Positions 16,129-64,000 of a DNA stretch of 64,000 nt are shown here, in pieces (positions within the stretch are counted from its first letter, which is position 1; every line of letters starts with the position of its first letter). The DNA is from Naegleria gruberi (taxonomy: Eukaryota), in the NCBI GenBank assembly GCA_000004985.1, contig GG738914.1, one strand, 5' to 3'. The notes beneath the pieces were generated by a model. The model was not told the DNA's origin. It made no database searches and was given only the letters and a program-made list of their open reading frames with translations. A program made the translations under genes and the position numbers.

Positions 16129-17264
16129 GATCAGTCAAACTATTCAATTGACTAATGAAATTTGCTCCCTGATCACGAATGCAGTTATTACCAATGTTAA
16201 GCGTAGTCAATCTATCCAATCCACTAATGTGTTCAGCTCCTTTTTGTCCAATATTATTTCCACAAATAGTAAGGTTGGTCAACTGTTTCATTTCACTAAT
16301 ATATTGAGCGCCTTCATCGCCTAATTTGTTATATCCAATACCAAGAGTAGTCAATTGCTTGAGTACACATAAATGTTTTGCACCTTCTTCACTAATATTA
16401 GATGTGTAAATATAAAGATTTGTGAGTTTGGACATTTCGCTAATATATTTAGCTCCTTCATCACCAACTTTTGTGTTATTAATAGAGATAGGTTAATTGT
16501 TTCAAAGAGTGAATGTGTTTAGCACCTTCAACTCCAATATCATTGTTACTAATGTTGAGACTAGTCAATTGATTCATTCTACCAATGTATTGAGCTCCTA
16601 TATGACCAATATTATTCGAAAGGATGAGCAGTGTGGTTAACTGGTTGAGTTGACTAATAGATTTTGCTCCTTCATCTCCAATTTCATTTTCTGATATTTC
16701 GAGATATCTTAGTTGTTGCATATTACCGATATACTTGGCTCCCCCCATATCGATAGGATACAAATACCCACACATATCAAGATGAGTCAATTGATTCATT
16801 TTGCTAATGTATTTAGCACCTTCATTACCAAAATCATTGGCAGTAATATCAAGAATTCTTAATTTCTTCAGTTGACTAATGTGTTTTATATCTTCACTAC
16901 CAAGATTGTTATAATGAATATCAAGAACAGTCAACTGCTTCATCAATTCCAATATTTTACAATCAAATTTAAAAGATAAATCTCTATTTTCCACTTTTAA
17001 AGTTACAATATTTTGTAAAAATTGACCTTTCACCATTCTATCATTCCTACATATTACCGAAAGTTTACATCTTTCTCTAACAATTTTCAACCACTGTTTT
17101 GAAACTAGTGCACAACTCATTGCAATAAATTTAAAATCATCGGAATGAAAAGATAAAATCTCTCCGAGTATATCATCATCAATAACATGATGAGAATTAT
17201 TCATTGTATTGAGTGTCGATACCTCTGCAGCAGCAGAAGGGTTGCTTGTTTGTTGTTGGCCCAT
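16040..17264 (-). CDS. F-box-like / LRR (ribonuclease-inhibitor type) repeat protein; frameshifted near 16479
   Basis: ATG at 17264. The N-terminus is F-box-like (DDILGEILSF...SKQWLKIVRERC). About 14 repeats of 28 aa with consensus NxIGxEGAKYISxMxQLTxLxI follow. The repeat register continues across a tandem TAA TAA (LTYLY**INNTKVGDEGAKYISEM), which requires a 1-2 nt indel. Confidence 0.75.
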
Positions 17265-25980: not shown

Positions 25981-26093
25981 GTGTAAGGCGGTCTTGACCG
26001 AGTGGTTAAGGTGATTGACTAGAAATCAATTGGGGCGACCCGCACAGGTTCGAGTCCTGTAGATCGCGATCAGTTTTATCTTTTAAAAAATTA
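25981..26093 (+). repeat. duplicated ~110-bp unit containing tRNA-Ser(AGA) plus shared flanks (copy 1)
   Basis: Near-identical to 31591..31702. The shared flanks are GTGTAA upstream and ATCAGTTTTATCTTTTAAAAA(A)TTAAC downstream. Confidence 0.8.
25988..26068 (+). tRNA. tRNA-Ser (anticodon AGA)
   Basis: Acceptor GCGGTCT pairs with AGATCGC, with one G-T pair. Anticodon loop is CTAGAAA. The variable arm is long. T-loop is GGTTCGAGTCC. Confidence 0.9.
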
Positions 26094-26515
26094 ACTATCT
26101 TTTACAAATATTTAAACATATTACACCATTAATAATGAATTAATCACATATCATATCACATAATCTTTCTATTAAGTTAACTTGCATACTTGAGAGATTC
26201 ATACAAGATATTGTACTACTTTTTGTTGTCGAGAAAAGGTTTACCCGAGCTAAAGTCTTACACCAGGTTTTACAGTACTCTGCCTTCAACTCATCTCCTT
26301 TAAAGTGGGTAATAACCTTATTAATAATTCCACAGTAAACCATCTGGAAATTGTCCATTGAATTTCCAAACCGTAACACTCGCTGCTGTTCACGCCACGC
26401 ACCTTCACGCTATCAATAGTAAAATCAATCTACACAGCCTTAATCAAAAAAGTGTTTGCTGGCAATTTTTCGTAAATTTTGAGTGGCGCTCAAATCCGTT
26501 TTTTGATTAAAAAAA

Positions 26516-29500
26516 ATGCAAGGAAGAACGCTACTGCTTTTCACGCTCATCCTTTTATGTGTGCTAGCTTATTGTTGTGTAGAGAATGTTACTGCTGAAT
26601 CATGGGGAAGTTTCTTGAGTCAATCTATGCAAGTTACAAATGGTAAGTGGAGTGTAATTTGACATTTTGGAAGAATTAAGCATTATGATCATTATTCATA
26701 TTTAGGAAAATTATTTTCATCATCAAAAAGATCACAAGTTGTTTGTCCTCCAAATACCTTTGGAAGTAAATGTAATAATAAGGTGAATCTCCCAGATACA
26801 TATCCTCTCAAAAAAGGTCCGTTAATGATTGGCCAGATGGAGATTAATGATGGAAATTCTTATTCATGCGAGTGGACTATTTTTGTTTTAGAATTTAATC
26901 AAAGTTTTAGTTATCCCTGTTTTTTTGTCGTAGCCGATACAACTGTTCCACCAATCAATTACACTCTAACCTATTCAGTGTGGTCTGCAGGTTTCATAAT
27001 TTTTTCAAAGGATGTTGTGTTTATTGATGGGATAATTCCAACATTGAATACTAAGGTGACCTACATGGGTGATTTCAATTTCTTGATTGACAAACCAATG
27101 AGCTGGGATGATTCTGCCAACACATGCCAAGTTGGAATAGTTCAACAAAAGATTTCTTCATTGCAAGAACTTTCAAAGTTGAAAAACTTAACTACATTTG
27201 ACATTCCTTGCAATTCATCTTCAACAATCAAGGTTCCATATTTTGGATATCCTTACTAAGATAGTGTTTTCCTATCATAATTTAAAATATTCAATGTATG
27301 ATAATTATATTCAAGAAAGAACCTTAATTGAATACTTTCCAACATTTTTTGCAAATCTTGGAAACACGACAGACATTAGCATTTCAAACTCTGATAGAAT
27401 TATCTCTTTCTATAGCATTGTGAGTTCTAACATTCCTGTTTTGAAATGCAAAGTCCAATTGAGTCTAGGAAATTCTCTCACTACCCTATTCGAATCTAAT
27501 TGTTCTTCCTTTTTGAACTTTACCCATTCACTCACTCAATACAGCACCAATACGAATGCCTCCATCATAGTCACTCTCTCAAATCAAGAATACATGTTTG
27601 AAGAAAGTGAAACTTTTGACATGAATCTATCAAATTGTTCTCAGTGTCAAAATGGAATTTGTCGATTGTCTCAAAGTAGTATTGATGGTTCAACTCATTG
27701 CGAATGCTCAGGCTTGTTTGAAGGAGAATTTTGTCAAGAGTGTAAAGATGGTTTTGTCAAATTATCGGACAAGTGCGTTTGTCCGAATGGTTATCAACAA
27801 ATTGGTTTTGGCTGTGTCTTTGTTAGTAGCTCAAACGCCACTTCCTGTTTTGGATATAGTGTCAAAGAAGGTGATCGTGCATGTTCTTATCATGGAATTT
27901 GTAATTTGAATACTCATTTGTGTGAATGTAGTGAAAACTTTGATGGTGACAGATGTTCAACATGTAAGACAGGTTACACTGGTTCAAAGTGTGATATTCC
28001 AATTTGTCATGATGTGAGTGCCATCGATTCAACTGTTTGTAATTCCAAAGGTGATTGTGTAGCACCTGACAGCTGTCAATGTAATGCAAATTATTATGGA
28101 CCTAATTGTGCAAGCTTTAAATGTAATGGCATTGAAAAGAATAATGCTTTAGTTTGTTCATCACATGGTACATGTTCCAATGCTGATGTATGCACTTGTT
28201 CCTCAAATTATGATTCGTCCACTTTCTGTTCAAAATGTCTTCCTTCCTACAATGGAACTGATTGTTCCATAAAAATTTGCAGCCCAGAAACCACTTGTAG
28301 AGGCCATGGACAATGTAACGATCAATTACAATGTATCTGTAATGGAAAATTCACAGGCACCTATTGTGAAAAGTGTTTAGATGGTTGGGTTGGCAGTAAT
28401 TGCGACATTACTTGTTCTGCACAGACAACTTGTTCTGGAAAGGGAAGTTGTTCATCAACTGGATCTTGTATCTGCTCGGCAACTTCCTATGGAGATCATT
28501 GTGAGAATTGTAAAGATGGTTGGTATGGAGCTAATTGCGACTTTAGAATAGATTTTACATCTTTTGAATTTAATGAGAATGGTGATTCGATTAGTGCTTC
28601 TGTAAACTCTGTCATGAAGAAGAATATCAACTGTTCATCGCTCATTGTAAACACTGAAGTGTTAGGACAAGGTGCAACTTGTGTATTGGATGGTGATAAG
28701 AGTTTATTGATCATTAATCTTGGCACCTTGGCAACTATTGTCATTAATGGAAATCTCATTATCAGAAACTACATTGACAGCAAATTAACAACCAATGCCA
28801 AAGTGTCAGGAACTTTCTATCAAAGAGTTGATCCTGTCGCCTCCTTGACATCTGAAAAGTCTGTCATTGGTTGTGGAACAATGTTCTTGGATGCTTCTTC
28901 ATCCACTTCATTGGACAGAAGAAGATTGTTATTCACATTCTCTGCAGTCACAGCTCCAAATAATCAAGCCTTATCAAACCTTAATAATCTCATTTCTGGA
29001 AATAGTGCAAGTACTGTCAAATTCTCAGTGAATAATTTTACAGGTGGATCTTATTCTGTTCAGGTTGCTGTTCAGAGCACATTCTCTGGTAGAGTTTCGT
29101 ATGCTACGTTTGCATTCATGGTGACTGATGCCTCCCCACCAAATTTGAGTATTAAGAATGGTGTTTCGAGTACTGTGACTATTGGAAACTCATTTGTGGT
29201 TACACCAATTGTTTCATTCCCTTCATGTTATTCTGGTTCTGCTTTAATATCTAATCTGAAATTTACCTATACTCAAGTTAGCGGTGCTGCACTCCAGATT
29301 AAACAAAAGAATGAATTGTTGGTGTTTAGTTCAGATTATACCAAGTTGACTGAAGAAGGTAAATATGTATTTAGTTTGAGTGCTGTTGAACAGGGATATC
29401 CAGGAGCATCCATCACATTCGAAATCATCGCAGTAGCCCTTCCATTGAAAGTTTCGTTCAATATTCGTGACATGTCTCAATCCATGGAAGATAAAATCTC

Positions 29501-31454
29501 GTTTACAGTACTCAAACAGGATCCAAGTAATCCAGATGATGCAAGTGGACAAGTAGCTCTATCTTGTGTCAATATGGAAACTTTACAAAGTTGTGATGGT
29601 TTCGTCCAGAATGGTGCAAATATTGATCAGACCACTTTGTTATTTAACCAAAAGTATGGACCTGGCGTTTATTTGTTTACTGCTGTGTACACCAAGGGTT
29701 CGAGATTCTCCTCTTCCAAAGTTAAAATCACTGTCACAAGTCAATCGAAATCATCCTTCTTGAGAATATACATTAATACTCCTTCCAATATTGATCTGAC
29801 CTCAGTTGACCCATCCACTTATTTAATTCTTCAAGCACAAAGCATCGACTCACTAAGCGTTCAAAGAATCTACTCATGGACAACTGATTTTGATTCCTCC
29901 TCCACCTCCTCATTGGATCTCAACAAGAAATACTTGTCCATTCCAAAGAGTTTACTTGTTCCTGGTGCTTCTTACACAGTTTCTGTTAAGGTTGTGGATG
30001 GAGCAAAGGTAGGTGAGGGAGTTATTTCATTTGTGGTCAATTCGCCTCCAACATTGGGAAGTTTGGAAATTAATCCATCGACAGGTGTTGCCCTCACTGA
30101 TGAATTTAAGGTTTCATGTGGAAATGGGTGGTCGGATGTTCAACTCCCGCTGACCTTCAAGTTTTTGTACAGACTTCAAGGAGATGTGTTCTGGAAAGTA
30201 TTGAAAGAAAGATCTGAAACGAGGTCTTTCAGTACTGTCATGCCAAGTGGACATATAGAAATCAAATCCATTGTCTATGATGCTTTAGGAGCCGCCACAG
30301 AAACAACACAAATCATTCAAGTCACTAATCCAGTTGACATTACATCAGCCGTTCAATCTTTGAATGCTATTAGTACTTCTTCAGTCACTTCCTCTTCGAC
30401 CTCATCTGCATTGAGTGTTATTCAATCATTGAAACCTCAAACTCAAGAAGAAAAGCAAAAATTGAGTGAAACTGGATCAAAGATTGCAATTGCCTATTTT
30501 TCACAGATAGAAAAGGAAGAAACCGTCACTTCCCAAACAGTTTCATCAACAGCCTCTTCAATTTCTGTTATTTCATCCATCAGTACTTGTATTTCAAATC
30601 TGCCTGAAAGCACAGTCAGTTTTATCATTACTAAATTCAAGTCAACTGTCGATGGCGCCAATTCAAAGCTTAATTTACCAGATGAAGATATTGAATCATC
30701 ATTCAACAGTGCCACCACCATTCAATCCTATGTTGTCAAAAATGGAGAAAAGAGGGCAATCTATGTCTTCTCCAAAGTTGATATTACAATGTTAGATCAA
30801 ATTAAGGAAACTCTTGTTAACCTACAAGTGAAGAATTTAGTTGCAGACATGCCTGCTGCTAGAACATTCGGCACAGATTACTATTCATATATGAGATTAA
30901 TGAGCGTTTCGTCTTTGAGTAATTTGAATGATACAATCAGTTCAGAATCTTCATTCTCTCTCAGTCAACCATTCAGCACACTATCACAATTTTCTAATTT
31001 GGATACTGTTAAACTTGTGATGAAAGTCCAACAACAAAACGAAAGTGTTACCAAACTTTTCTCATTCAAGGTAGTTTCTACCAATACTGAAATACCAATC
31101 AGTTCTGATTCAATTGCTGAACTCACCATTGAAAATAATGATGGAGTTGTACAAAATGCTGCCACTTACGAATGCAAGATTTTACAAAATGGACAATTGA
31201 CATCATTGTCCTCATGTGTGATTGTTTCACACTCTGCAACCAGCTTTACAGTTAGGGTTCCTTCAACTGGTTCTTATGCAATTGTGGCCAATGTTAAGAA
31301 AGATGTTATTGTTGACATATTGTCAGAAGATAATTTGAAATATCTTGCTTTCCTATCATTGATTGTTCCAATTGTTGTGTTGATTGTCATTGTTTTCATT
31401 GTTGTGGTTTGTGTTATTAGAAAGAGAAAGAGAGCAAAAGTTCAAGGTGTTTAA
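26516..31454 (+). CDS. large type I membrane protein with ~9 EGF/laminin-EGF-like repeats and long Ser/Thr-rich ectodomain; one intron plus an apparent frameshift
   Basis: Exon 1 (26516..26642) encodes signal peptide MQGRTLLLFTLILLCVLAYCC. A 63-nt GTAAGT..TTTAG intron at 26643..26705 joins it in frame to ORF 26783..27259. The reading frame then continues in ORF 27198..31454 and needs a 1-nt shift. EGF repeats include CECSGLFEGEFCQECKDGF...CDITCSAQTTCSGKGSC. The C-terminal TM helix is IVPIVVLIVIVFIVVVCVI followed by RKRKRAK. Confidence 0.75.
26643..26705 (+). other. spliceosomal intron (63 nt, phase 1)
   Basis: It starts GTAAGT and ends ATTTAG. Splicing joins the signal-peptide exon to the downstream ORF in frame. 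Confidence 0.75.
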
Positions 31455-31590
31455 GATTTTTAATAAACAATTAAAATAATTCAAGTTGCATTTCGTATTT
31501 TATTATTAAAGGGCAAGTTACGATTTAGTCACTTTTTATCAACAATTACTTGTGAATATTGGAATTATGTGTTAATGTACTCAAACATTT

Positions 31591-31702
31591 GTGTAAGGCG
31601 GTCTTGACCGAGTGGTTAAGGTGATTGACTAGAAATCAATTGGGGAGACCCGCACAGGTTCGAGTCCTGTAGATCGCGATCAGTTTTATCTTTTAAAAAT
31701 TA
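31591..31702 (+). repeat. duplicated ~110-bp tRNA-Ser(AGA) unit (copy 2)
   Basis: Flank identity with 25981..26093 extends beyond the tRNA on both sides. Confidence 0.8.
31598..31678 (+). tRNA. tRNA-Ser (anticodon AGA), second copy
   Basis: Identical to 25988..26068 except for one substitution in the variable arm (GGGGCGACCC versus GGGGAGACCC). Confidence 0.9.
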
Positions 31703-31712
31703 ACAAATCTGT

Positions 31713-32237
31713 TTATTCACCCAATAATCTTCCTGCCTCCAATTTTAAGGCCTTTCCAATTGTGTTGGCCTCCATTGTTTCTTTCACATTCTCCAAATAT
31801 TTTAACATGACTTCCAAGATTCCATCATGAAATATTTTAATGGCATCTTCATTGAAAATCACTTGATTCTTCTCTGGTGTGTTGTCTTGTTCTTCTTCTA
31901 ATTGATTGGAAAGAAATTCTTTAAACGTATAAAAGGATATGATATTTCTTGCCAACTTCATTTTCTTTTTCAATTCGTTTCGTTTTCGTTTCTTCTTCAT
32001 TTGCTTCTTACAAATTTTCGAATCATGATCTTCATTGCTTCTCTTGAGTTTGTCTTGTGAATCGCTTGTTTTTATATTCAATTCTTCCTTCATTTTGCTT
32101 CTTGATCTGGTGATTACACTTGGTTTGTGTTTGGTTTCGATTGTTCCAGCCAAGAGTTGAAATGCTTTCATATTTCTTTCAAACTCATCCTGGGTGAGGA
32201 GTGGAGAATTTTCTTCTGAATGATTGGATGATTCCAT
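31713..32237 (-). CDS. hypothetical small basic protein (174 aa), Lys-rich
   Basis: ORF with ATG at 32237. Contains KKQMKKKRKRNELKKKMK basic stretch. It ends 35 nt from the tRNA-Ser copy on the opposite strand. No domain recognised. Confidence 0.45.
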   Translation of the reverse strand: MESSNHSEENSPLLTQDEFERNMKAFQLLAGTIETKHKPSVITRSRSKMKEELNIKTSDSQDKLKRSNEDHDSKICKKQMKKKRKRNELKKKMKLARNIISFYTFKEFLSNQLEEEQDNTPEKNQVIFNEDAIKIFHDGILEVMLKYLENVKETMEANTIGKALKLEAGRLLGE

Positions 32238-32290
32238 TGGGAAGAAGTGCTTGAGAGGTTTGTTGTTGTTTTTTTGTTGATGGTTTTTTC

Positions 32291-32495
32291 AAATTTAGAT
32301 TTTAAAAGATGTGATGAGTCATGACACAAGACAAACCTTTTTGTTTTTAATCAAAGAAAAAGGAAAAAGCAAATGTTGATGTTTGAAATTATGATTATTT
32401 TATTGTTATTAATACATGACAATAATAATACTGTAACTGAAATATTTCAATTAATTTTAATTGAACTTCTCAAAAGATATTCCAATAGAATGTTG
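32291..32495 (+). repeat. ~200-bp direct repeat, left copy
   Basis: About 85% identical to 34923..35113. Shared blocks are AAATTTAGATTTTAA..GATGAGTCAT..AGACAAA..AATGTTGATGTTTG(A/G)AATT..TTATTTTATTGTTATTAATA..ACAATAATAATA..AAATATTTCAATTAATTTTAA..GATATTCCAATA. Confidence 0.8.
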
Positions 32496-33136
32496 ACACA
32501 TTCCTTATAGAAAATTACAAAGAACAGATTTTTCAGCTGCCGTCTGTCACTTGACATGATATGGCTTTTCAATTAATAAAATATGGAGATTTTAATGTGT
32601 GGCCAGTTCTCCTCCATCGGCACTTCAGCTAAAATTGTAACTAAGGAAGAGTGGAATTATGAAAATGAAATTGTTTTGAGTCAGGAGAAGTGTCCAACTA
32701 TTTGATAGATGTATTTCTGAATCAGACATTGGTAATTTCTCTAATATTATCCAATATTCAAGATTCTGAAATTTATTCCAAGTGGATTATCAATTATAGT
32801 GCAAGCATAAAGAAATGGCCCTTAGAATGGACAATTAAATTATTTAATTTCAAATTAATCAATGTAAATTTATAATAAATTAGTGGTCTTTGCTCTGAAG
32901 AGTATCAATTTTATTTCTGTCCCGTGGCTCATTTCTTAATTCCAGAAAGTTGGAGAACTATGATGTCAGTTTTACAATGTTTGAATCAATGATTGTTCTA
33001 ATTAAATAACAACAAGTAATAAATCTCCAGTCAATAAAATAATTGAAAATGAAAATAATTGGGAGATTATTTGTTGAATATTGTTTATTTTGTTATTTAC
33101 ACATGTGTTAATATAGCTTTCTTGTTGGATTAGTTA

Positions 33137-34588
33137 TTATTCCATCATCGTTTGCCTCCATTCTTTATAGGCATTGATAGGTCTATAAATCTTATCCAAG
33201 TCTTGATGGAATAATGCAATACTGTCGGCTATTTTTTGAGTTTTAGCCTGATAATTCATCCTTGATTGATTATATATTGGAGGCAATGGATTTTGATTAT
33301 TGTAAAGATTTGTAATGAAAACATTATAGTGATTAATCATATGTCCTAACAAGTCTGCAACAAGTTGTTTCATTAATTCAATGTGTGCATCTGCCTCGTT
33401 CATTTTCAAACCTCTATGTGCTGCAGGATGACGAATATTAAAGATAACTGATTCAACTAAGGGCTTGATGTTGTTTCCAGTTACTTGTTGATACTGTTTA
33501 CCATAATTTCTGACACAATCAGAAAATTCACGAGTATAGGTACCAACTAACTCATAGGCGCAGTCACAGACCAGATCCTTAAATTTTGTAAAGAAGGTCT
33601 CAAAGTCCCTGCCTGTCTTTTGATGGAGCTCTATGCTTTGATCAGTTGTTTGAATAAATGTTGGTTGACTATATTGATTTTTGTTGTATTTGTTTTGTAC
33701 AGTATTACTTGGATTAATGTTTGTGTTTGGAAGGATGCTCAATGATACAGAAGCACCAAGAGATAGATAGCATTCACCTCTAATATCAATATATTGTTTA
33801 GTGTCCACACTTTTGGAGCTGGAATTCTTAAGACCAAATGGATGATGTTTCCAAATAAGACAAGAATTGATTCCAAAATCAGATAAACGACCACCTTCTT
33901 CTCCCAGTGGTTGAAATTTACCTTGATAGGTAAATCCATCAACAGTGTTGACTGAGACAAAAGGTGCATTGGATTCACAGTTTTGGAATGATGGAATCAA
34001 ATTGGTATCTCCATAATAAATAAACACCAAACTTCTCAAAGAAAATGGTTTTGAAAGATCCACAGTGAATCTACCGAAAATGGGACATTTCTCCTTGGCA
34101 TACACAGTACCCATGTTAGCATAATATCTGGTATGTGCTAATGGAAGATTACAGTGATCACTACGAAATGCTTGTAATTTGCCAAGGAGTTTGTTAGAGT
34201 TGGAGTACAAACCCAGTAACAAGCCAGGGTAATGATATGCTTTCTTTTCTCTTTCATCATTCAAAGTAACACTATCTGATGTCAGTTCAACATACGACCC
34301 ATTACGAATTGTTGCAGGGTCCTTATGTCCAATCCAAACACCAATCTTGGAAATTGTACCAATATCAATGCAAGCTGTAGGTTGAATACTAACAGCAAAA
34401 TCATTGTAAACTCTAATATTATTTAAGTACAAAATATTGCCATAACGAGCAGAACAACGACATGAAACAGGTCTCTCATATGAGGAGGAGAATATCATTA
34501 CCTCCACTCCTGTGTTAATTGTGTCATCAATGGCTTGAGTAATGTGATTGATAGATGCACTTTCAAGTCCTGTGCTTTGGTATTGCAT
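33137..34588 (-). CDS. hypothetical protein (483 aa), lineage-specific, no recognised domain
   Basis: Intronless ORF with ATG at 34588. The N-terminal half looks beta-rich and Cys-containing, the C-terminal half helical. No homology recognised by eye. Confidence 0.6.
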   Translation of the reverse strand: MQYQSTGLESASINHITQAIDDTINTGVEVMIFSSSYERPVSCRCSARYGNILYLNNIRVYNDFAVSIQPTACIDIGTISKIGVWIGHKDPATIRNGSYVELTSDSVTLNDEREKKAYHYPGLLLGLYSNSNKLLGKLQAFRSDHCNLPLAHTRYYANMGTVYAKEKCPIFGRFTVDLSKPFSLRSLVFIYYGDTNLIPSFQNCESNAPFVSVNTVDGFTYQGKFQPLGEEGGRLSDFGINSCLIWKHHPFGLKNSSSKSVDTKQYIDIRGECYLSLGASVSLSILPNTNINPSNTVQNKYNKNQYSQPTFIQTTDQSIELHQKTGRDFETFFTKFKDLVCDCAYELVGTYTREFSDCVRNYGKQYQQVTGNNIKPLVESVIFNIRHPAAHRGLKMNEADAHIELMKQLVADLLGHMINHYNVFITNLYNNQNPLPPIYNQSRMNYQAKTQKIADSIALFHQDLDKIYRPINAYKEWRQTMME

Positions 34589-34922
34589 TGTTTTGGATTT
34601 GGTTTTTTTTAAAGAGTTGTTTTGGTTGGTGAGAGCACGTGATGGGTTTAAATTGTCTTTACAATGAAAAGTGAAGAATTCCTAACTGGATTCTATTCTA
34701 TTTTTAAATTTTCAATCACGTTGAGTGATTGAGAGATTTTTAGCATTTTACAACTTTGTTACTTCATTACTAATTTCAAAAGTAAGGGCCATCAACACAT
34801 ATGAATACAGATTACTTTCTATTGAATTATTAACCTTGTTGGGTAGATTAGGTGGAGAATTGGAAAAAATTGGTTTCTTTAGGTCCATACAGAATAAGTG
34901 TTTAGACTACTTAAAGAATATT

Positions 34923-35113
34923 AAATTTAGATTTTAACGATTTGATGAGTCATTCAAGACAAATCCTATTAATCAAAGTAAATGGAAAGTAAATGTTGAT
35001 GTTTGGAATTGTGCTTATTTTATTGTTATTAATATATTACAATAATAATAACTAAAATATTTCAATTAATTTTAAATTAATCTCATATATATAGATATTC
35101 CAATAAAATATTG
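34923..35113 (+). repeat. ~200-bp direct repeat, right copy
   Basis: Direct-orientation partner of 32291..32495. The pair flanks the 33137..34588 ORF. Confidence 0.8.
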
Positions 35114-35209
35114 GAATTAATTTCAAATATTCAATTAATTCTTCTTTGATATCTTGATCTTTCCATGCAATAACATTCTCTCCATCAATTATTTCCACTA
35201 TTAGAAAAA

Positions 35210-36048
35210 TCAATTATCTTCTGGTGGATCTAGATCAATAATATCTCCAACAATATCAAAAATCTGTCTTGCATCATCTCCATAAACAGAGAAGAAAATC
35301 TTACTAAACTCCTCTTCAAATTCATTATCATTAATCTTTGTTCCAAGAACCTTTTCAAGTCCTAAATTCAACGAAAATAGCTTGGTTGCCTCAATATTCG
35401 AATATGTACTTATTGATTGATCCACCTTCCTAACCAGTGGCATATCCCACTGTCTACAACTTGCTTTTTGATTATCCATTTCTGAACTAATCAGTGGAAT
35501 CACCTCTGCCGTCAAGAGACTATGCTCCTCCTCAAGTTCAAGTGATTGTTTCACATAGGGAATTACAAAATTCACTTTCCTAGCCAATGCATGTTTAAAA
35601 CTCGGAAATGATGTATCAGCTCTCTGATAGAATTTCAATGTAGTATTAACCAATTCATCATCATCACTAGCTCCCACACCAGAAAATCCTATATTATTAT
35701 TATGTGTGATGAAGTCCTTTTGGATGAATTATGATCACCAATAAAAAGAACAGGAGTGTTGTTAGATGATGAAGTTACAAATCTATTCATTTGCCTAAAT
35801 AATTGATTCCTCTCTTCAACATCCTCAGCGTCCTCAGTTTTATCGTCCTCACCGTAGAAATTATTATTATTAAAATTAGTATTTTGAATAATGGCAGCAG
35901 AAGGTGGCTGTCTACTAGTAACTTCTAAAGTAACATCTTCACCCTCTGTTAGTGCATTGCCCGCATCAGTTGATACATCATCTTCATCATCATCCATAAG
36001 ATTAATCACCTCGTGCTCATTGGATGCCTGCTGCATATTTTTCATCAT
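35210..36048 (-). CDS. hypothetical acidic protein; two ORFs joined either by a 1-nt frameshift or by a 50-nt GT..AG intron (about 35689..35738)
   Basis: ORFs 35689..36048 and 35210..35677 are adjacent on the minus strand. The downstream reading frame is open upstream of its GTG (..ITHNNNIGFSGVGASDDDELVNTT). A 50-nt minus-strand segment (GTGATC...ATATAG) would join them in frame as ..VLFI-G-FSGVGASDDD. Confidence 0.5.
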
Positions 36049-36165
36049 ACAGGTTATAGCAACAACGCAAACTTTTTTGAGTTCGGAATCTACGAGCCGA
36101 TTACATAAGAATTTTGTATAAGAATCGTTGTATTTTTAGAATCAAAACTTCCTGTTCCTAAAAAA

Positions 36166-38922
36166 ATGTTGGCACGTATGAAAGAGCACAAGCATGCTAG
36201 CCAACAGCAACAACAAGCAAATTCCCAACAACAACAACAAACAACGAATAGTACTACTGTTTCTACTACTACAACTCCCAATTCTTCCAATTCTACCTCT
36301 CCAGCAACTACGAATACATCCTCTCTAAATTCACTAGCCTCTTCTATCCAGTCAACACAAAATCCTTCTCCAGTGATTGTAGGTACTGGTAGCAGCAGCA
36401 ATAATAACAGTCAAACAACATCCTCATTGCTGACAACAGCAGCAACATCTATTGGTAGTCTTGGAGGAGGCGGTTTGCAAAATTATGATGATGATAACAA
36501 TAGCAAGAAGAGAAGTTTCCAAGAGATGGAACAAACAAGTTCTTCATATTCTCGTACTGACGACTCTAGCAAGTTTAACAAATCTTCTCATCCAAGCAAT
36601 CCTTCAAACCTTCATCACTATGATGAGAATAATGATGAAGATGATGAAGATTTAGACCTTTCTACAACAACAACATCTTCATACAACAAGCCACCACCAA
36701 CACACCAACAAGGTTCATCCTCCTCTTCGACTCATTCTGCTTATCCATCTCATTTCTCCAGCAGCAATAACCGTCCAGTTGCTCCTCCTTCCAAAGTCCT
36801 CCTCTTTTCGAACCTTCCACCAAATTGCCAAAAATCAGAATTGTTAGAATTTGATACCTTCAATGAGTGTAAATTCCAAAAGGTTTTCCTCTTCAAACAA
36901 CCAGCTCCAAGTGGTCCAAATAGACACAACAACAAGAAGAGAAAACGTGATGGTTATTTGGCATTTGTCGAATTTGAAAGCGTTGAGAAGGCACAAATGT
37001 TTCTAGACAAGTTTGAAGGACAAAAGATAAAGATTAGAAACAGAACCGCCTACCTCAAGTTCTCTGAAAAACAACAATTGGAAGGTACTCCTGGAGGATT
37101 GACCATGAATGTTAATGAAGACTTGAACACAGTACCTGTTAGCAAGACTGTTGTAAATACCAATAACGCAACCATTATACATATTACATTTACTCATTGC
37201 GATGAGTATAATTATCCCCTCAACGTTGATTTACTCTTTAATTTATTCAGCAAGTTTGGAACCATTGAAAAGATTAATATTTTCATCAAGAATGAACTCA
37301 CCCAATCACTTGTTCAATTCAAGTCAGACACTGAAGCAACAGAAGCTGTCAAGGAAATGGAAGGTGTTTTTGTCTATCCAGAGATGAAACTTTATAGAAT
37401 GAATATTCAATTCAGCAAAAAGTCACGTGAAGAACTTTTAATCAAGGAGACTAACCATAGAAATAGAGACTATGTTGTTCATCCAATGCGTTCTCAGAAA
37501 CCATATGATGGTAGTGGCAGCAGCATGAGATACAACAACAATACTCCTTCTAATAATCACTATGCTCCTCCACCTGAAGACCCATACTATGTCTCTGAAT
37601 CATCGAATAGCAATTCTCCAGACAGAAGAATTCCTGGTAATGATATGGATGAAATGATGCACAATAGAAGAAAATCACCTCCTCCATACATGTCATCACG
37701 TGATTCTTACCCTTCTCATCATTTTGCTCAACCATCCTATAATAATTATCCACCTCCATCTTCTTATTATCCACCACCATCATCTAGTTCTAATGGTGCC
37801 ATGATGATACCACCACCATCATCAATGCATTCATACAATGGTCCAAACGATTATATGGGCTCATCAGGTTTCCCTCCAATGGGTGGACCACCTCCAATGC
37901 CTCCTCAACATCACGGAGTGCCACAGCCTCATCATGGTCATCCTCAACAATTCCCTCCACCTCCTTCTTATTCATCAAACGGAGTACCACCTCCAATGCA
38001 CATGCCAATGTTCCCTCCAGGTACTTGTGTTGTTATTGTTAAGAATCTTCCAGTCCAATGTACATGTGATCATTTATTCGTTCTGTTTGGCCTCTATGGT
38101 GATGTTATCAAAGTTAGTATTAGTTTATCTAAGAAGGATCACAAGACTCCATACATGGCTTTTATTCAATTCAAGTATCCACACGAGGTTGGTAATGCTC
38201 TCCGTTTCCTAGGTGCTCCATTCTATCCAACTTTCAACAAGTATACACCTGGAAATACACCTATTTCCAGTGGGTCCACTCTATTTGGAAAAGAGTTACA
38301 TATTGAACCATCTTTCCGTATTTTTGACATTATTCCTCCAAGATCATCAAAGTCAAAGGAAAATGACGGTTCAAAGGATATTTTATTTAGATCCTATGAA
38401 AACTCTCCTCTTCATCGCTTTACTCCTAGACAAGGTACTCAAGAAAGTTACCAAGCCAACATGAAGAAGCTTATGAACATTTGTCCTCCTTCTCCTGTTC
38501 TTCATATCAGTAATGTATCAGGAACAACAACTGAGGATAAGATTAGAAGAGAAATTGACAAATTGTTCGAATCACCAAATCAAAGAAAGCAAAAGTCAAG
38601 AATTGTGGACTTTAAATTCATCGACTACAAGAAAACTCAAACATCTGATCATAAAATGAAAGAAAAGAAATCAGCAATCATCGAAATGGATAGTATTGAT
38701 GCAGCAACTACTGTTTTAGTTGAATTGCATGATATTTCCATTGATTCTCATCACTTGAACATCAAGTTTAGCAACAGAAGTGGCAGTCAATCCTCGTCAC
38801 AAAGCCACTATGATTCATACTACCAAAATGATCAAAGATCCAACAACAATAGACCACCAAGAAGAAGTAGTGATAGAATGCCTCAACAAGACACAATGAT
38901 GGGAGAAAATCAGGATAATTAG
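36166..38922 (+). CDS. PTB / hnRNP-L-like RNA-binding protein with four RRMs and long low-complexity regions
   Basis: ATG at 36166. The N-terminus is poly-Q/S/T. RRM-like blocks are present (GYLAFVEFESVEKAQMFLDKFEGQKI; LVQFKSDTEATEAVKEMEGVFVY; CVVIVKNLPVQCTCDHLFVLFGLYGDVIKVSISLSKKDHKTPYMAFIQFKY, which resembles PTB RRM3; PSPVLHISNVSGTTTEDKIRREIDKLF, which resembles PTB RRM4). A Pro/Tyr-rich linker separates them. Confidence 0.8.
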   Translation: MLARMKEHKHASQQQQQANSQQQQQTTNSTTVSTTTTPNSSNSTSPATTNTSSLNSLASSIQSTQNPSPVIVGTGSSSNNNSQTTSSLLTTAATSIGSLGGGGLQNYDDDNNSKKRSFQEMEQTSSSYSRTDDSSKFNKSSHPSNPSNLHHYDENNDEDDEDLDLSTTTTSSYNKPPPTHQQGSSSSSTHSAYPSHFSSSNNRPVAPPSKVLLFSNLPPNCQKSELLEFDTFNECKFQKVFLFKQPAPSGPNRHNNKKRKRDGYLAFVEFESVEKAQMFLDKFEGQKIKIRNRTAYLKFSEKQQLEGTPGGLTMNVNEDLNTVPVSKTVVNTNNATIIHITFTHCDEYNYPLNVDLLFNLFSKFGTIEKINIFIKNELTQSLVQFKSDTEATEAVKEMEGVFVYPEMKLYRMNIQFSKKSREELLIKETNHRNRDYVVHPMRSQKPYDGSGSSMRYNNNTPSNNHYAPPPEDPYYVSESSNSNSPDRRIPGNDMDEMMHNRRKSPPPYMSSRDSYPSHHFAQPSYNNYPPPSSYYPPPSSSSNGAMMIPPPSSMHSYNGPNDYMGSSGFPPMGGPPPMPPQHHGVPQPHHGHPQQFPPPPSYSSNGVPPPMHMPMFPPGTCVVIVKNLPVQCTCDHLFVLFGLYGDVIKVSISLSKKDHKTPYMAFIQFKYPHEVGNALRFLGAPFYPTFNKYTPGNTPISSGSTLFGKELHIEPSFRIFDIIPPRSSKSKENDGSKDILFRSYENSPLHRFTPRQGTQESYQANMKKLMNICPPSPVLHISNVSGTTTEDKIRREIDKLFESPNQRKQKSRIVDFKFIDYKKTQTSDHKMKEKKSAIIEMDSIDAATTVLVELHDISIDSHHLNIKFSNRSGSQSSSQSHYDSYYQNDQRSNNNRPPRRSSDRMPQQDTMMGENQDN

Positions 38923-61308: not shown

Positions 61309-63231
61309 ATGTCAATGAAAGAATATATAGAGCTCATCTTTTTATCTTCGTATCAGAATCCTTCACTAATAGTCAATGGTCATGCTTCATCAACAGCGCC
61401 ATTTTCGTCATCTTTACATAACGTTTTATTGGAAAGTTTGAATAGCTCAACAACAATAACCAACACAACAAACAATGGTACATCAAACTTTTGTGATCCG
61501 TCACTGTTTAATACACCTTGGAGTAGAGAAGTGAATGGAAGTGTCATTTACGGGCTTTGTCCAGATACTTATTTCTCAATGGCTTTTTGTTTGGCATTTG
61601 TTGTACTTTATCTGTTAGTTGTCATTTTGAGTGGTGTTGGAGTTTATTGGAAGAGGAAGAGTGGTCATATTGTGGCTAGGAATCCAATCTACCTCTACTT
61701 TACATTAGGAGCTGCACTATTCTTTGTGATATCTCTTACTATGAGAGTGATTGTGGGCAGGAAAATATATCCGTGTGGATTGTTGACTGCTTCCTTTTTT
61801 ACATTCCCTCCTGCAATTTGTTTACCTACCATCTTTAGAATGATGAGAACATTCTTCATGTATAAGATTAATTTACAAAAGGCCAAATTATTCGATTCCT
61901 CTACTGGCACCAATAAGCCGGAGGGGAAAGATTTTGAATTATTTAAAGGAGCAGTAGAACCTGAAATCAAACATGAAACGCCAACACCAGGAATTGATTT
62001 TTCACAAATATTTCATGCTGAGACTTCTCCTTCTGTTCACCAAAATAATCCATTCGTAGGAAGTCCTAGTTCAACAGTTGACTCACTCAGTAGTACCACA
62101 GATGATGTGGATGACGTTTCGAATTCCAATACTGGAATTGATTCAGAATCTATTGCTGATGTTTCAACATGGAATTTTACAGAACTCAAAGAAATTCAAT
62201 CACTCAGATCTGAAATTAGAAAGTTGAAGATTTACAATTTTGTGACCAGTTTGAAATTTATTACCATTTTTTACATTCTGGGTTTTATATTTGGACTTGT
62301 AGTATGGCTGATTATTGGAGGTATAGAAGAAGCTTTATATTCATTCAATACTAGTCCAGATAAGAAACGTATCTTCCTCTATGATGGTGGATTGTTTGTT
62401 TTTGATCATGGTTGTGGAATGACATCAAACTCTATCATTATCGTTGGTATTGAAGCAATTTTATACATTATTCTAGAGTTTATCTGTTTCATAATGTGTG
62501 TCAGAGCTGATAAAGATACTTGGGGTATCAAGTTAGAATCTCTCACATTGATTGTAATTCAGATTCTTAGTGCAATAATTTTCCTAGTGGCAGGAAATAT
62601 AGAATTCATTTTCAACTTTACAGAATATTATTTCCCATATGGATTTGTATTGTGGGGTTACATGCTGATTGAAATTATTGTTTGTGTGACACTTCCAGTT
62701 CTCTATGCCATTGTAAGAGATAATAAGGACAAGGTTCAACAAGCAGCTCAATTGAGTACTTTGGAAAAGATTTTGAAAAATAAGAAAACCTTCCAAGTTA
62801 TGCTTGATTTTGCAAGAAGAAGTTATTGTACTGAAAGTATATTGTGTTGGAGGGATATTCAGAGATATAGATTGGCAAGAAAGAAAAGTCATAGAAAAAA
62901 GGCAATCATTCACATACTTGGAGTTTATTTGACATTTGGAGCTCCCTTGGAATTAAACATGCCAAATGTAGAGAAACTGAAACAGGAAATTCTAGCTCAA
63001 ATTACTGGAGGAAAATTTATAGTAACAGAAGGATTGATTGTTGATGCCAATGAAATTTCCAAAATTATGAATGGTAATGCACTTGTACAACTTCACACAA
63101 ACTTGTTCCAAGCTGTACAGGAGCATTGTTTGAATGATATGAGTGATTTATTTGAAAGATTGAAGAATTCTAATAAGGAGATTGCAGAGATTGTCAAGTC
63201 ACATAAGGAACTTTCACAAACCGTGAACTAA
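61309..63231 (+). CDS. 7TM-RGS protein, paralog B
   Basis: First in-frame ATG at 61309 (MSMKEY). Same architecture as 52496..54412: GLCPDTYF...KRKSGHIVARNPI, seven TM helices, a long hydrophilic TM3-TM4 loop, and RGS box VMLDFARRSYCTESILCWRDIQRYRLA. Confidence 0.8.
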   Translation: MSMKEYIELIFLSSYQNPSLIVNGHASSTAPFSSSLHNVLLESLNSSTTITNTTNNGTSNFCDPSLFNTPWSREVNGSVIYGLCPDTYFSMAFCLAFVVLYLLVVILSGVGVYWKRKSGHIVARNPIYLYFTLGAALFFVISLTMRVIVGRKIYPCGLLTASFFTFPPAICLPTIFRMMRTFFMYKINLQKAKLFDSSTGTNKPEGKDFELFKGAVEPEIKHETPTPGIDFSQIFHAETSPSVHQNNPFVGSPSSTVDSLSSTTDDVDDVSNSNTGIDSESIADVSTWNFTELKEIQSLRSEIRKLKIYNFVTSLKFITIFYILGFIFGLVVWLIIGGIEEALYSFNTSPDKKRIFLYDGGLFVFDHGCGMTSNSIIIVGIEAILYIILEFICFIMCVRADKDTWGIKLESLTLIVIQILSAIIFLVAGNIEFIFNFTEYYFPYGFVLWGYMLIEIIVCVTLPVLYAIVRDNKDKVQQAAQLSTLEKILKNKKTFQVMLDFARRSYCTESILCWRDIQRYRLARKKSHRKKAIIHILGVYLTFGAPLELNMPNVEKLKQEILAQITGGKFIVTEGLIVDANEISKIMNGNALVQLHTNLFQAVQEHCLNDMSDLFERLKNSNKEIAEIVKSHKELSQTVN

Positions 63232-63645
63232 TTGTCAGATTTATTGGCACAATATGGACAAAAGTAATCAACTATTAACAAACTTAGGGTAATTGTTTGA
63301 GAATAATATTGATCCAATATCTTTTACAATTCATTTTACAATTGAAGTTACCATATCTCTAAAAAGGTTTTTGAAGTCAAGTGACTTGTTGACCTTCATA
63401 TTTTACAAGTCCTTGGAGCGCAACAGGAATGGTGAGGCATGGAAAAGGTACGGTGTGTAATAAAAATAGAATTGGCAAGGAACAGCGAAGGTTTGGTGAC
63501 TTATTTTTAAGAAACGACCAAGGTACGGCAGAAAATAGGAACGGGAATAGGTATGCAAACAAGGCATGGATATTTTTAAAATTTTTACAAGTCAGTTCCA
63601 CCATTGAAATCCTTGCTAATTTTCTATAAAAGTACAAATAACACT

Positions 63646-64000
63646 NNNNNNNNNNNNNNNNNNNNNNNNNNNNNNNNNNNNNNNNNNNNNNNNNNNNNNN
63701 NNNNNNNNNNNNNNNNNNNNNNNNNNNNNNNNNNNNNNNNNNNNNNNNNNNNNNNNNNNNNNNNNNNNNNNNNNNNNNNNNNNNNNNNNNNNNNNNNNNN
63801 NNNNNNNNNNNNNNNNNNNNNNNNNNNNNNNNNNNNNNNNNNNNNNNNNNNNNNNNNNNNNNNNNNNNNNNNNNNNNNNNNNNNNNNNNNNNNNNNNNNN
63901 NNNNNNNNNNNNNNNNNNNNNNNNNNNNNNNNNNNNNNNNNNNNNNNNNNNNNNNNNNNNNNNNNNNNNNNNNNNNNNNNNNNNNNNNNNNNNNNNNNNN
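63646..64000. other. assembly gap (N run to end of window)
   Basis: Run of N. Confidence 1.

What the first reader, a model, noticed from the sequence alone, without database searches (positions are those of the whole stretch)
32291..35113. About 200-bp direct repeats (about 85% identity) bracket a 2.6-kb segment carrying one intronless lineage-specific ORF
Copies at 32291..32495 and 34923..35113 are collinear across more than ten conserved blocks. They share an embedded TGATGAGTCAT motif, which is AP-1/GCN4-like. They flank the 483-aa ORF 33137..34588, which has no recognisable domain. This layout fits an LTR-like or segmentally inserted unit, a relic of tandem duplication, or a dispersed repeat family that landed twice. 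The enclosed protein could be a horizontally acquired or fast-evolving secreted factor.
Basis: seen in the sequence. Interest (0 to 1): 0.6.

Follow-up and report, generated by a model that had tools for sequence, protein, structure and literature searches.

The report
Duplicated spacer flanking a Naegleria orphan gene
Two diverged 200-bp copies of an AT-rich intergenic segment flank one annotated species-specific gene in Naegleria gruberi; this looks like the scar of a single local rearrangement, not a mobile element, and is fairly ordinary.

Summary
Copies at 32291-32495 and 34923-35113 align with 167 matches, 18 mismatches and 26 gap columns: 90% over aligned bases, 79% with gaps (blastn E=7e-45). 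They are the only such non-tRNA pair in the 64-kb window.

The window is Naegleria gruberi NEG-M. The enclosed minus-strand ORF is the annotated hypothetical protein NAEGRDRAFT_81826. It has one paralog on another scaffold (79% aa) and a 97% strain variant, and no other relative in 1.8 billion representative proteins. It has no domain and no signal peptide. Its codon usage is native, and dN/dS is 0.14.

No LTR hallmark is present: no TG..CA ends, TSD, PBS, PPT or gag/pol. Nothing beyond the 200 bp is duplicated. Mismatches are scattered as neutral drift predicts, so the conserved TGATGAGTCAT motif needs no selection.

Removing one copy plus the 2.4-kb insert leaves a normal spacer of about 350 bp between two neighbouring orphan genes. 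The best reading is a one-off local duplication or insertion in an orphan-gene island.

Interest is low.

The parts
32291..32495 (.). Repeat copy A (205 bp, 22% GC). It lies 53 bp upstream of the ATG of the 174-aa gene and 641 bp downstream of the stop of the 483-aa ORF (both on the minus strand).
34923..35113 (.). Repeat copy B (191 bp, 18% GC). It lies 334 bp upstream of the ATG of the 483-aa ORF and 96 bp downstream of the stop of the 258-aa gene (both on the minus strand).
32312..32322 (.). TGATGAGTCAT in copy A (contains the palindrome TGAGTCA)
34943..34953 (.). TGATGAGTCAT in copy B
33137..34588 (-). 483-aa intronless ORF, the N. gruberi hypothetical protein NAEGRDRAFT_81826 (XP_002670596, D2VZI4). 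It belongs to a two-member species-specific family and has dN/dS 0.14 against a strain variant.
32496..33136 (-). 641-bp non-coding stretch 3' of the ORF, inside the bracketed segment. It has no ORF of note and no RNA family match.
34589..34922 (-). 334-bp 5' flank of the ORF, inside the bracketed segment. It differs at 4 of 324 sites (1.2%) from the strain contig L001 and holds a 46-codon upstream ORF at 34748..34888.
31713..32237 (-). 174-aa gene NAEGRDRAFT_53502, a species-specific orphan and the left neighbour that bounds the reconstructed empty site
35210..36036 (-). 258-aa two-exon gene (P0005; exons 36036..35737 and about 35688..35213, stop at 35210-35212), a species-specific orphan and the right neighbour

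Best explanation
The two copies are the product of one local, non-transposon rearrangement in an island of three Naegleria gruberi-specific genes. A piece of about 200 bp of the AT-rich spacer between the 258-aa gene and the 174-aa gene now exists twice. The 2.4-kb block carrying the 483-aa gene, with its own 334-bp 5' flank and 641-bp 3' flank, sits between the copies.

Two routes give this layout. In the first, the block was inserted into the spacer and the repair duplicated the target. This could be fill-in of a long staggered break, template switching, or single-crossover integration of a circular copy that shared the segment. In the second, the 200-bp segment was copied 2.4 kb away, next to a gene that was already there.

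Since then the copies have drifted apart neutrally, to about 10% substitutions and 8 indels. The repeat is a scar, not a working terminal repeat.

Shown: the repeat, its sharp ends, the absence of mobile-element hallmarks, that the gene is real and native, and the neutral mismatch pattern.

Inferred: that one event made both copies, and which of the two routes it took.
For: The repeat is highly significant and is the only non-tRNA pair of its kind in 64 kb.

Similarity stops sharply at both ends. The flanks give nothing by blastn or tblastx. They score no better than shuffles (64 of 400 shuffles on the left reach the observed score, 267 of 400 on the right).

The spacers are 53 bp, 641 bp, 334 bp and 96 bp. 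Deleting one copy plus the insert therefore leaves about 350 bp between the stop of the 258-aa gene and the ATG of the 174-aa gene. That is typical of the 50-400 bp gaps between ORFs elsewhere in the window. The present gaps of 900 and 622 bp are long for tRNA-free gaps between neighbouring ORFs.

The ORF family has a second member on another scaffold, so the gene has been copied between loci at least once.

Mismatches are scattered at random. The longest exact run is 21, against 25.1 +/- 7.0 simulated, P=0.72.

The strain contig L001 carries the same gene and the same 5' flank up to 11 bp from copy B, at 97.2% identity. The arrangement therefore predates the split of the two strains. This fits the greater divergence between the copies (K=0.10) than between the strains in the non-coding flanks (1.2-2.9%).

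One recent survey puts transposable elements in N. gruberi at only 0.28% of the genome (preprint 10.64898/2026.06.24.734286).
Against: No empty site was seen in a related strain, and the paralog's locus could not be read.

Target duplications of 200 bp are unusual for simple break repair.

If the insert arrived when the repeat was made (K about 0.10) and the gene has evolved at dN/dS about 0.14, its donor should still be about 95% or more identical in protein. The only known paralog is 79% identical. Either the donor is lost, or the paralog evolved under relaxed constraint, or the gene was already resident and only the 200 bp was copied.
Confidence: 0.55

Rival explanations
1. The 200-bp segment belongs to a short dispersed repeat family of the N. 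gruberi genome (SINE-, MITE- or solo-LTR-like). Two members happen to lie 2.4 kb apart in the same orientation around an unrelated gene.
For: The ends are sharp and the flanks are unrelated on both sides of each copy. The segment is non-coding and AT-rich. Genome-wide copy number could not be measured.
Against: Only two copies exist in 64 kb, and they are adjacent and co-oriented. That is improbable for a sparse family. There are no terminal inverted repeats, no target-site duplication around either copy, and no tRNA-like or other RNA family signal. Reported TE content in N. gruberi is very low.
Confidence: 0.2
2. The segment is a working cis-regulatory module: 3'-end signals followed by a promoter, including the TGAGTCA bZIP-type site. 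It was duplicated and is retained because it drives both downstream minus-strand genes, the 174-aa gene and the 483-aa gene.
For: Each copy lies upstream of a minus-strand gene in the same orientation. TGATGAGTCAT is identical in both copies. TGASTCA is somewhat over-represented in the window: 18 against 9.1 +/- 4.1, with 3 of 100 shuffles reaching 18. The 5' flank of the 483-aa ORF is much better conserved between strains (1.2%) than its synonymous sites (dS 0.08).
Against: The distances to the two start codons differ sixfold, 53 against 334 bp. The mismatch pattern is indistinguishable from random scatter, so no block, including the motif, is conserved beyond expectation. An 11-mer survives intact with probability of about 0.3 at 90% identity. 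The other TGASTCA sites in the window are not confined to promoters. No transcript data were available.
Confidence: 0.15
3. The whole 2.8-kb unit is a non-autonomous LTR-type element (TRIM/LARD-like) or another terminal-direct-repeat element, and the 483-aa protein is its cargo or its enzyme.
For: Two co-oriented terminal repeats of LTR-like size flank an internal region with one ORF. A second ORF copy exists on another scaffold.
Against: The repeat ends are AAATTT...ATRTTG, not TG...CA. The outer flanks are GATGGTTTTTTC and GAATTAATTTCA, so there is no TSD. Neither internal end begins with TGG or matches the 3' end of any of the four tRNAs in the window. There is no polypurine tract. There is no RT, integrase, gag, protease or recombinase signal even at E<=10. 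The orthologous copy in another strain shows dN/dS 0.14. That means selection on this copy at this locus, which is not expected of a decaying insertion whose repeats are already 10% diverged. Only two family members were found among 1.84 billion representative proteins.
Confidence: 0.05

Closest known systems
Insertions flanked by a duplicated target, or single-crossover (Campbell-type) integration of a circular DNA that shares a segment with the target
   Same: Direct repeats immediately flank a single-copy insert. Removing one repeat plus the insert restores a plausible uninterrupted locus. A second copy of the cargo gene exists elsewhere in the genome.
   Different: No empty site, donor flank or circular intermediate was observed. 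A 200-bp duplication is far longer than ordinary target-site duplications. The copies are already 10% diverged, so junction signatures are gone.
LTR retrotransposons and their non-autonomous derivatives (TRIM, LARD)
   Same: Two co-oriented terminal repeats of about 200 bp bracket an internal region of 2.4 kb.
   Different: There are no TG..CA termini, TSD, PBS, PPT or retroviral-type domain. The ORF behaves as a host gene under purifying selection.
Short dispersed repeats (SINE, MITE, solo LTR)
   Same: Short, AT-rich, non-coding, with sharp boundaries.
   Different: There are no TIRs, no per-copy TSD, and no Pol III or tRNA-related head. Only two copies were seen, and they are next to each other.
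Promoter or cis-module duplication with an AP-1/GCN4-type (TGASTCA) site
   Same: The same upstream sequence with a TGAGTCA palindrome lies 5' of two co-oriented genes.
   Different: Spacing to the start codons is not conserved. Nothing is conserved above the neutral expectation. No expression evidence is available.

Membership tests
LTR retrotransposon / TRIM / LARD | Two co-oriented terminal repeats | tested here: met
LTR retrotransposon / TRIM / LARD | Repeat termini 5'-TG...CA-3' | tested here: not met
   Ends are AAATTT...ATGTTG and AAATTT...ATATTG; the reverse strand does not fit either
LTR retrotransposon / TRIM / LARD | 4-6 bp target-site duplication outside the two repeats | tested here: not met
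   Outer flanks are ...GGTTTTTTC and GAATTAATT...
LTR retrotransposon / TRIM / LARD | Primer-binding site next to the 5' repeat and polypurine tract next to the 3' repeat | tested here: not met
   Neither internal end shares 5 nt or more with the 3' ends of the 4 tRNAs in the window. Neither starts with TGG. There is no purine run. Only four tRNAs could be tested.
LTR retrotransposon / TRIM / LARD | gag/pol domains or their remnants (autonomous elements) | tested here: not met
   No Pfam family at E<=0.01; only chance-level hits at E<=10
LTR retrotransposon / TRIM / LARD | Multiple copies in the genome with the same termini | not testable with these tools
Only one paralog of the ORF is known.
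Dispersed short repeat (SINE/MITE) | Many copies at unrelated loci | not testable with these tools
   Only two copies in the 64-kb window. The metagenome 20-mer scan gave only chance AT-rich matches.
Dispersed short repeat (SINE/MITE) | Terminal inverted repeats (MITE) or a tRNA/5S/7SL-derived Pol III head (SINE), plus a TSD around each copy | tested here: not met
   No TIR in the repeat finder, no Rfam or ARAGORN hit inside the copies, no per-copy TSD
Tandem duplication relic | The sequence that follows each repeat copy is also homologous | tested here: not met
   blastn and tblastx between 29000-32290, 32496-34922 and 35114-38500 found nothing. Flank alignments score no better than shuffles. 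A collinear hint left of the repeat (32/73 matches at offset 2651) did not survive multiple-diagonal and shuffle controls.
Insertion with duplicated target / Campbell-type integration | Direct repeats abut a single-copy insert, and removal restores a plausible locus | tested here: met
   The spacers of 53, about 200 and 96 bp sum to about 350 bp, within the range of other gaps between ORFs in the window
Insertion with duplicated target / Campbell-type integration | An empty site in a related genome, or a donor locus whose flanks match the insert | not testable with these tools
   The strain contig L001 has the insert and stops 11 bp short of copy B. DNA of the paralog locus is unavailable.
Functional AP-1/GCN4-type cis element | Motif conserved beyond the neutral expectation and linked to promoters | tested here: inconclusive
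   The motif is present in both copies. Mismatch scatter is random, P=0.72. Window-wide TGASTCA count is 18 against 9.1 expected, and the sites are not promoter-specific.
Horizontally acquired gene | Closest relatives in another lineage, or foreign composition | tested here: not met
   No relative outside N. gruberi in the 5.8 billion-cluster search, the 1.84 billion representatives, or the viral, metagenome and prokaryote genome scans. GC3 is 0.285 and codon-usage r is 0.89, like the neighbours.
Secreted protein | N-terminal signal peptide | tested here: not met
   Mean hydropathy of residues 1-25 is -0.40. The maximum 19-residue Kyte-Doolittle score is 1.04. This is a simple hydropathy test, not a dedicated predictor.

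The most novel reading that the evidence does not exclude
The repeat-gene-repeat unit is the integration scar of a gene-sized cassette that moves between Naegleria chromosomes without any transposase. For example, it could excise as a circle and re-integrate by recombination through the 200-bp segment. In that case the paralog NAEGRDRAFT_52722 on the other scaffold would be flanked by the same segment.
Probability: 0.07. Interest if true: 0.55.

Novelty: new member of a known kind. Interest (0 to 1): 0.2.

Why it matters
If the best reading holds, this is one small, datable example of how a species-specific gene island in Naegleria gruberi was rearranged. It is useful as an anecdote for work on orphan-gene dynamics, and it is not a new mechanism. 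It would matter more only if the same 200-bp segment also flanks the paralog. That would point to transposase-free cassette movement in a genome that is almost free of transposons.

Tried and rejected
1. Fetching the N. gruberi loci of the paralog, the ORF itself and the 174-aa neighbour by exact-protein look-up failed; the genome is not on record.

2. Metagenome scan with the protein alignment: 600 pattern hits, none a relative.

All 120 loci were chance AT-rich matches with no extension beyond about 40-60 nt.

4. Viral and prokaryote genome scans with the protein and with a 35-nt repeat pattern found nothing.

5. The structured-RNA or snoRNA idea (TGATGA as a C box) was rejected. There is no Rfam hit. 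MFE z-scores are -0.57 and -0.19. The D-box-like CTGA is not kept in copy B.

6. The coding-exon idea for the repeat (the 45-aa ORF MLMFEIM...) was rejected. By eye, all five differences between the copies in its first 20 codons change the amino acid. Copy B has a 5-nt deletion and an early stop.

7. Extension of the repeat over the start codon of the 174-aa gene was suggestive on one diagonal. It was not significant after scanning neighbouring diagonals and shuffling.

8. AlphaFold2 on the 3-sequence alignment gave mean pLDDT 38, so no fold search was run.

9. Literature search for the locus tags and accessions found no paper. The supplements of the N. gruberi methylome paper do not list these genes.
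Full report
**The observation**

Copy A (32291-32495) and copy B (34923-35113) align by blastn at 79% over 210 gapped columns, E=7e-45. A global alignment gives 167 matches, 18 mismatches and 26 gap columns in nine ungapped blocks. That is 90% identity over aligned bases, with a Jukes-Cantor distance of 0.10. The local score is 222, against 29.7 +/- 5.0 for 500 dinucleotide-preserving shuffles.

A self-comparison of the whole window finds no other pair of this kind. The only comparable pair is a duplicated tRNA-Ser gene. TGATGAGTCAT occurs exactly once in each copy.

**Where the window comes from**

The 174-aa ORF 31713..32237 (minus strand) is 100% identical to the Naegleria gruberi protein NAEGRDRAFT_53502. 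The 483-aa ORF 33137..34588 (minus strand) is identical to NAEGRDRAFT_81826 (XP_002670596, D2VZI4). Both lie on a 233,110-bp scaffold. The window is therefore N. gruberi NEG-M, and the enclosed ORF is an annotated, intronless hypothetical protein.

**The gene**

- **Relatives.** There are only two. One is a 97% variant on a 1.9-kb soil-metagenome contig, L001. That contig matches window 32997-34912 at 97.2% DNA identity, so it is the same locus in another strain. The other is a 79% identical paralog, NAEGRDRAFT_52722, on a different 304-kb scaffold of the same genome.
- **Wider searches.** An exhaustive HMMER pass over 1.84 billion representative proteins found nothing else. Scans of viral, metagenome and prokaryote genome collections also found nothing.
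- **Domains and structure.** There is no Pfam or PDB match. AlphaFold2 on the three sequences was unusable, with mean pLDDT 38.
- **A real gene.** Against the strain variant, dN/dS is 0.14 (dS 0.081, dN 0.011).
- **Native composition.** GC3 (0.285) and codon usage (r=0.89 with the other ORFs) are like the neighbours. The protein has no hydrophobic N-terminus or membrane segment.
- **Conclusion.** 'Lineage-specific, no domain' is confirmed. 'Horizontally acquired' and 'secreted' find no support.

**The surroundings**

The right-hand neighbour is a 258-aa two-exon gene (36036..35213, minus strand). It too has no relative outside N. gruberi, and neither does the 174-aa gene on the left. The repeats thus sit in an island of three co-oriented orphan genes. 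The island lies between a tRNA-Ser(AGA) gene (31598-31678) and a conserved RRM-protein gene.

The spacers are as follows:

| From | To | Distance |
|---|---|---|
| ATG of the 174-aa gene | copy A | 53 bp |
| copy A | stop of the 483-aa ORF | 641 bp |
| ATG of the 483-aa ORF | copy B | 334 bp |
| copy B | stop of the 258-aa gene | 96 bp |

Taking out one copy and the 2.4 kb between them leaves about 350 bp between the two outer genes. That is typical of gaps between ORFs in this window (mostly 50-400 bp). The present gaps of 900 and 622 bp are among the longest between neighbouring ORFs that hold no tRNA gene.

**What the repeat is not**

- **Not a tandem-duplication relic.** The segments that follow each copy share nothing by blastn or tblastx. 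They score no better than shuffles. A hint that the similarity runs on to the left over the start codon of the 174-aa gene (32 of 73 matches on one diagonal) did not survive controls. Neighbouring diagonals give equally good windows in this T-rich sequence, and 64 of 400 shuffles reach the alignment score.
- **Not an LTR pair by any defining feature tested.** The ends are AAATTT...ATRTTG, not TG...CA. The outer flanks share no target-site duplication. Neither internal end starts with TGG or matches the 3' end of any of the four tRNAs in the window. There is no polypurine tract. There is no retroelement or recombinase domain. The ORF is also kept under purifying selection at this very locus in two strains. 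That is host-gene behaviour, not that of an old insertion whose terminal repeats have already diverged by 10%.
- **Not a recognisable SINE or MITE.** There are no inverted termini, no per-copy duplication and no tRNA or Rfam signal.
- **Not a structured RNA.** MFE z-scores are -0.57 and -0.19, and no Rfam family matches at E<=1.
- **Not a coding exon.** By eye, all five differences between the copies in the first 20 codons of the small ORF inside copy A change the amino acid. Copy B is truncated by a 5-nt deletion.

**Is the conserved motif meaningful?**

The 18 mismatches are scattered as chance predicts. The longest exact run is 21 nt. Random placement of the mismatches on the same block structure gives 25.1 +/- 7.0, and P(>=21)=0.72. 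The 'conserved blocks', including the 11-nt TGATGAGTCAT, are what 90% identity gives without selection.

TGASTCA is mildly over-represented in the window: 18 against 9.1 +/- 4.1, with 3 of 100 shuffles as high. The sites are not confined to upstream regions. Both copies do lie 5' of a minus-strand gene. However, they lie at very different distances from the start codon, 53 and 334 bp. A regulatory role is possible but unsupported.

**Best explanation**

One local, non-transposon event duplicated about 200 bp of the spacer between the 258-aa and 174-aa genes and left the 483-aa gene block between the copies.

There are two routes. Either the block was inserted and the target was duplicated in repair, which could include single-crossover integration of a circle that shared the segment. 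Or the 200 bp was copied next to a gene that was already there.

The event predates the split of the two sampled strains. L001 has the same gene and 5' flank. The distance between the copies (0.10) also exceeds the strain divergence of the non-coding flanks (1.2-2.9%).

A timing argument (inference) weighs against the known paralog being the donor. At dN/dS about 0.14, a donor that split off at K about 0.10 should still be about 95% or more identical in protein, not 79%. So the donor is lost, or the paralog evolved under relaxed constraint, or only the 200 bp moved.

The very low transposon content reported for N. gruberi, 0.28% in one recent survey, lowers the prior for any mobile-element reading (preprint 10.64898/2026.06.24.734286).

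**What remains open**

The decisive data were out of reach. These are the genome-wide copy number of the 200-bp segment, the flanks of NAEGRDRAFT_52722, and an empty site in a relative. The N. gruberi assembly is not in the look-up collection. One metagenome scan found no relative. I therefore hold the local-duplication reading at about 0.55, a dispersed family at about 0.2, a selected cis-module at about 0.15 and an LTR-type element at about 0.05.

**Verdict**

This is a real feature, correctly described. Its mobile-element, HGT and secreted-factor interpretations are not supported. It is an unremarkable rearrangement scar around an annotated orphan gene. Interest is low (0.2). It is a new instance of a known kind of event.

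Noticed in passing
window 25981-26095 and 31591-31704: Two tRNA-Ser(AGA) genes are 98% identical over 115 nt, including 7 nt upstream and about 25 nt downstream of the tRNA. They lie as direct repeats on either side of the 1418-aa EGF-like ORF 27198..31454. A tRNA-Ser(TGA) gene sits 83 bp before the first one.
   Followed up: partly
window 31713-36036, minus strand: Three consecutive co-oriented genes (258 aa, 483 aa, 174 aa) each have no relative outside Naegleria gruberi. They form an orphan-gene island between a tRNA gene and a conserved RRM-protein gene.
   Followed up: partly
window 34589-34912 (with L001 1-327): The 5' flank of the 483-aa ORF differs between two strains at only 4 of 324 sites (1.2%), while synonymous sites of the ORF differ by 8%. 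The flank contains a 46-codon upstream ORF (34748..34888, minus strand), intact in both strains with one amino-acid change. This suggests a constrained 5' UTR or promoter.
   Followed up: partly
window, whole: The palindrome TGASTCA occurs 18 times against 9.1 +/- 4.1 expected from shuffles; 3 of 100 shuffles reach 18. Sites are in both coding and non-coding sequence.
   Followed up: no
window 16185-16327 vs 16543-16684, and 16563-16616 vs 16785-16838: Diverged direct repeats (72-81% identity) lie around and within the minus-strand ORF 16479..17264. They may be an internal protein repeat.
   Followed up: no
window 63001-64000: GC content drops to 0.21 in the last kilobase, against 0.29-0.39 elsewhere in the window.
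   Followed up: no
window 35689-35736: The annotated 258-aa protein requires a 48-nt GT..AG intron between the two open frames 36036..35737 and 35688..35213.
   Followed up: partly
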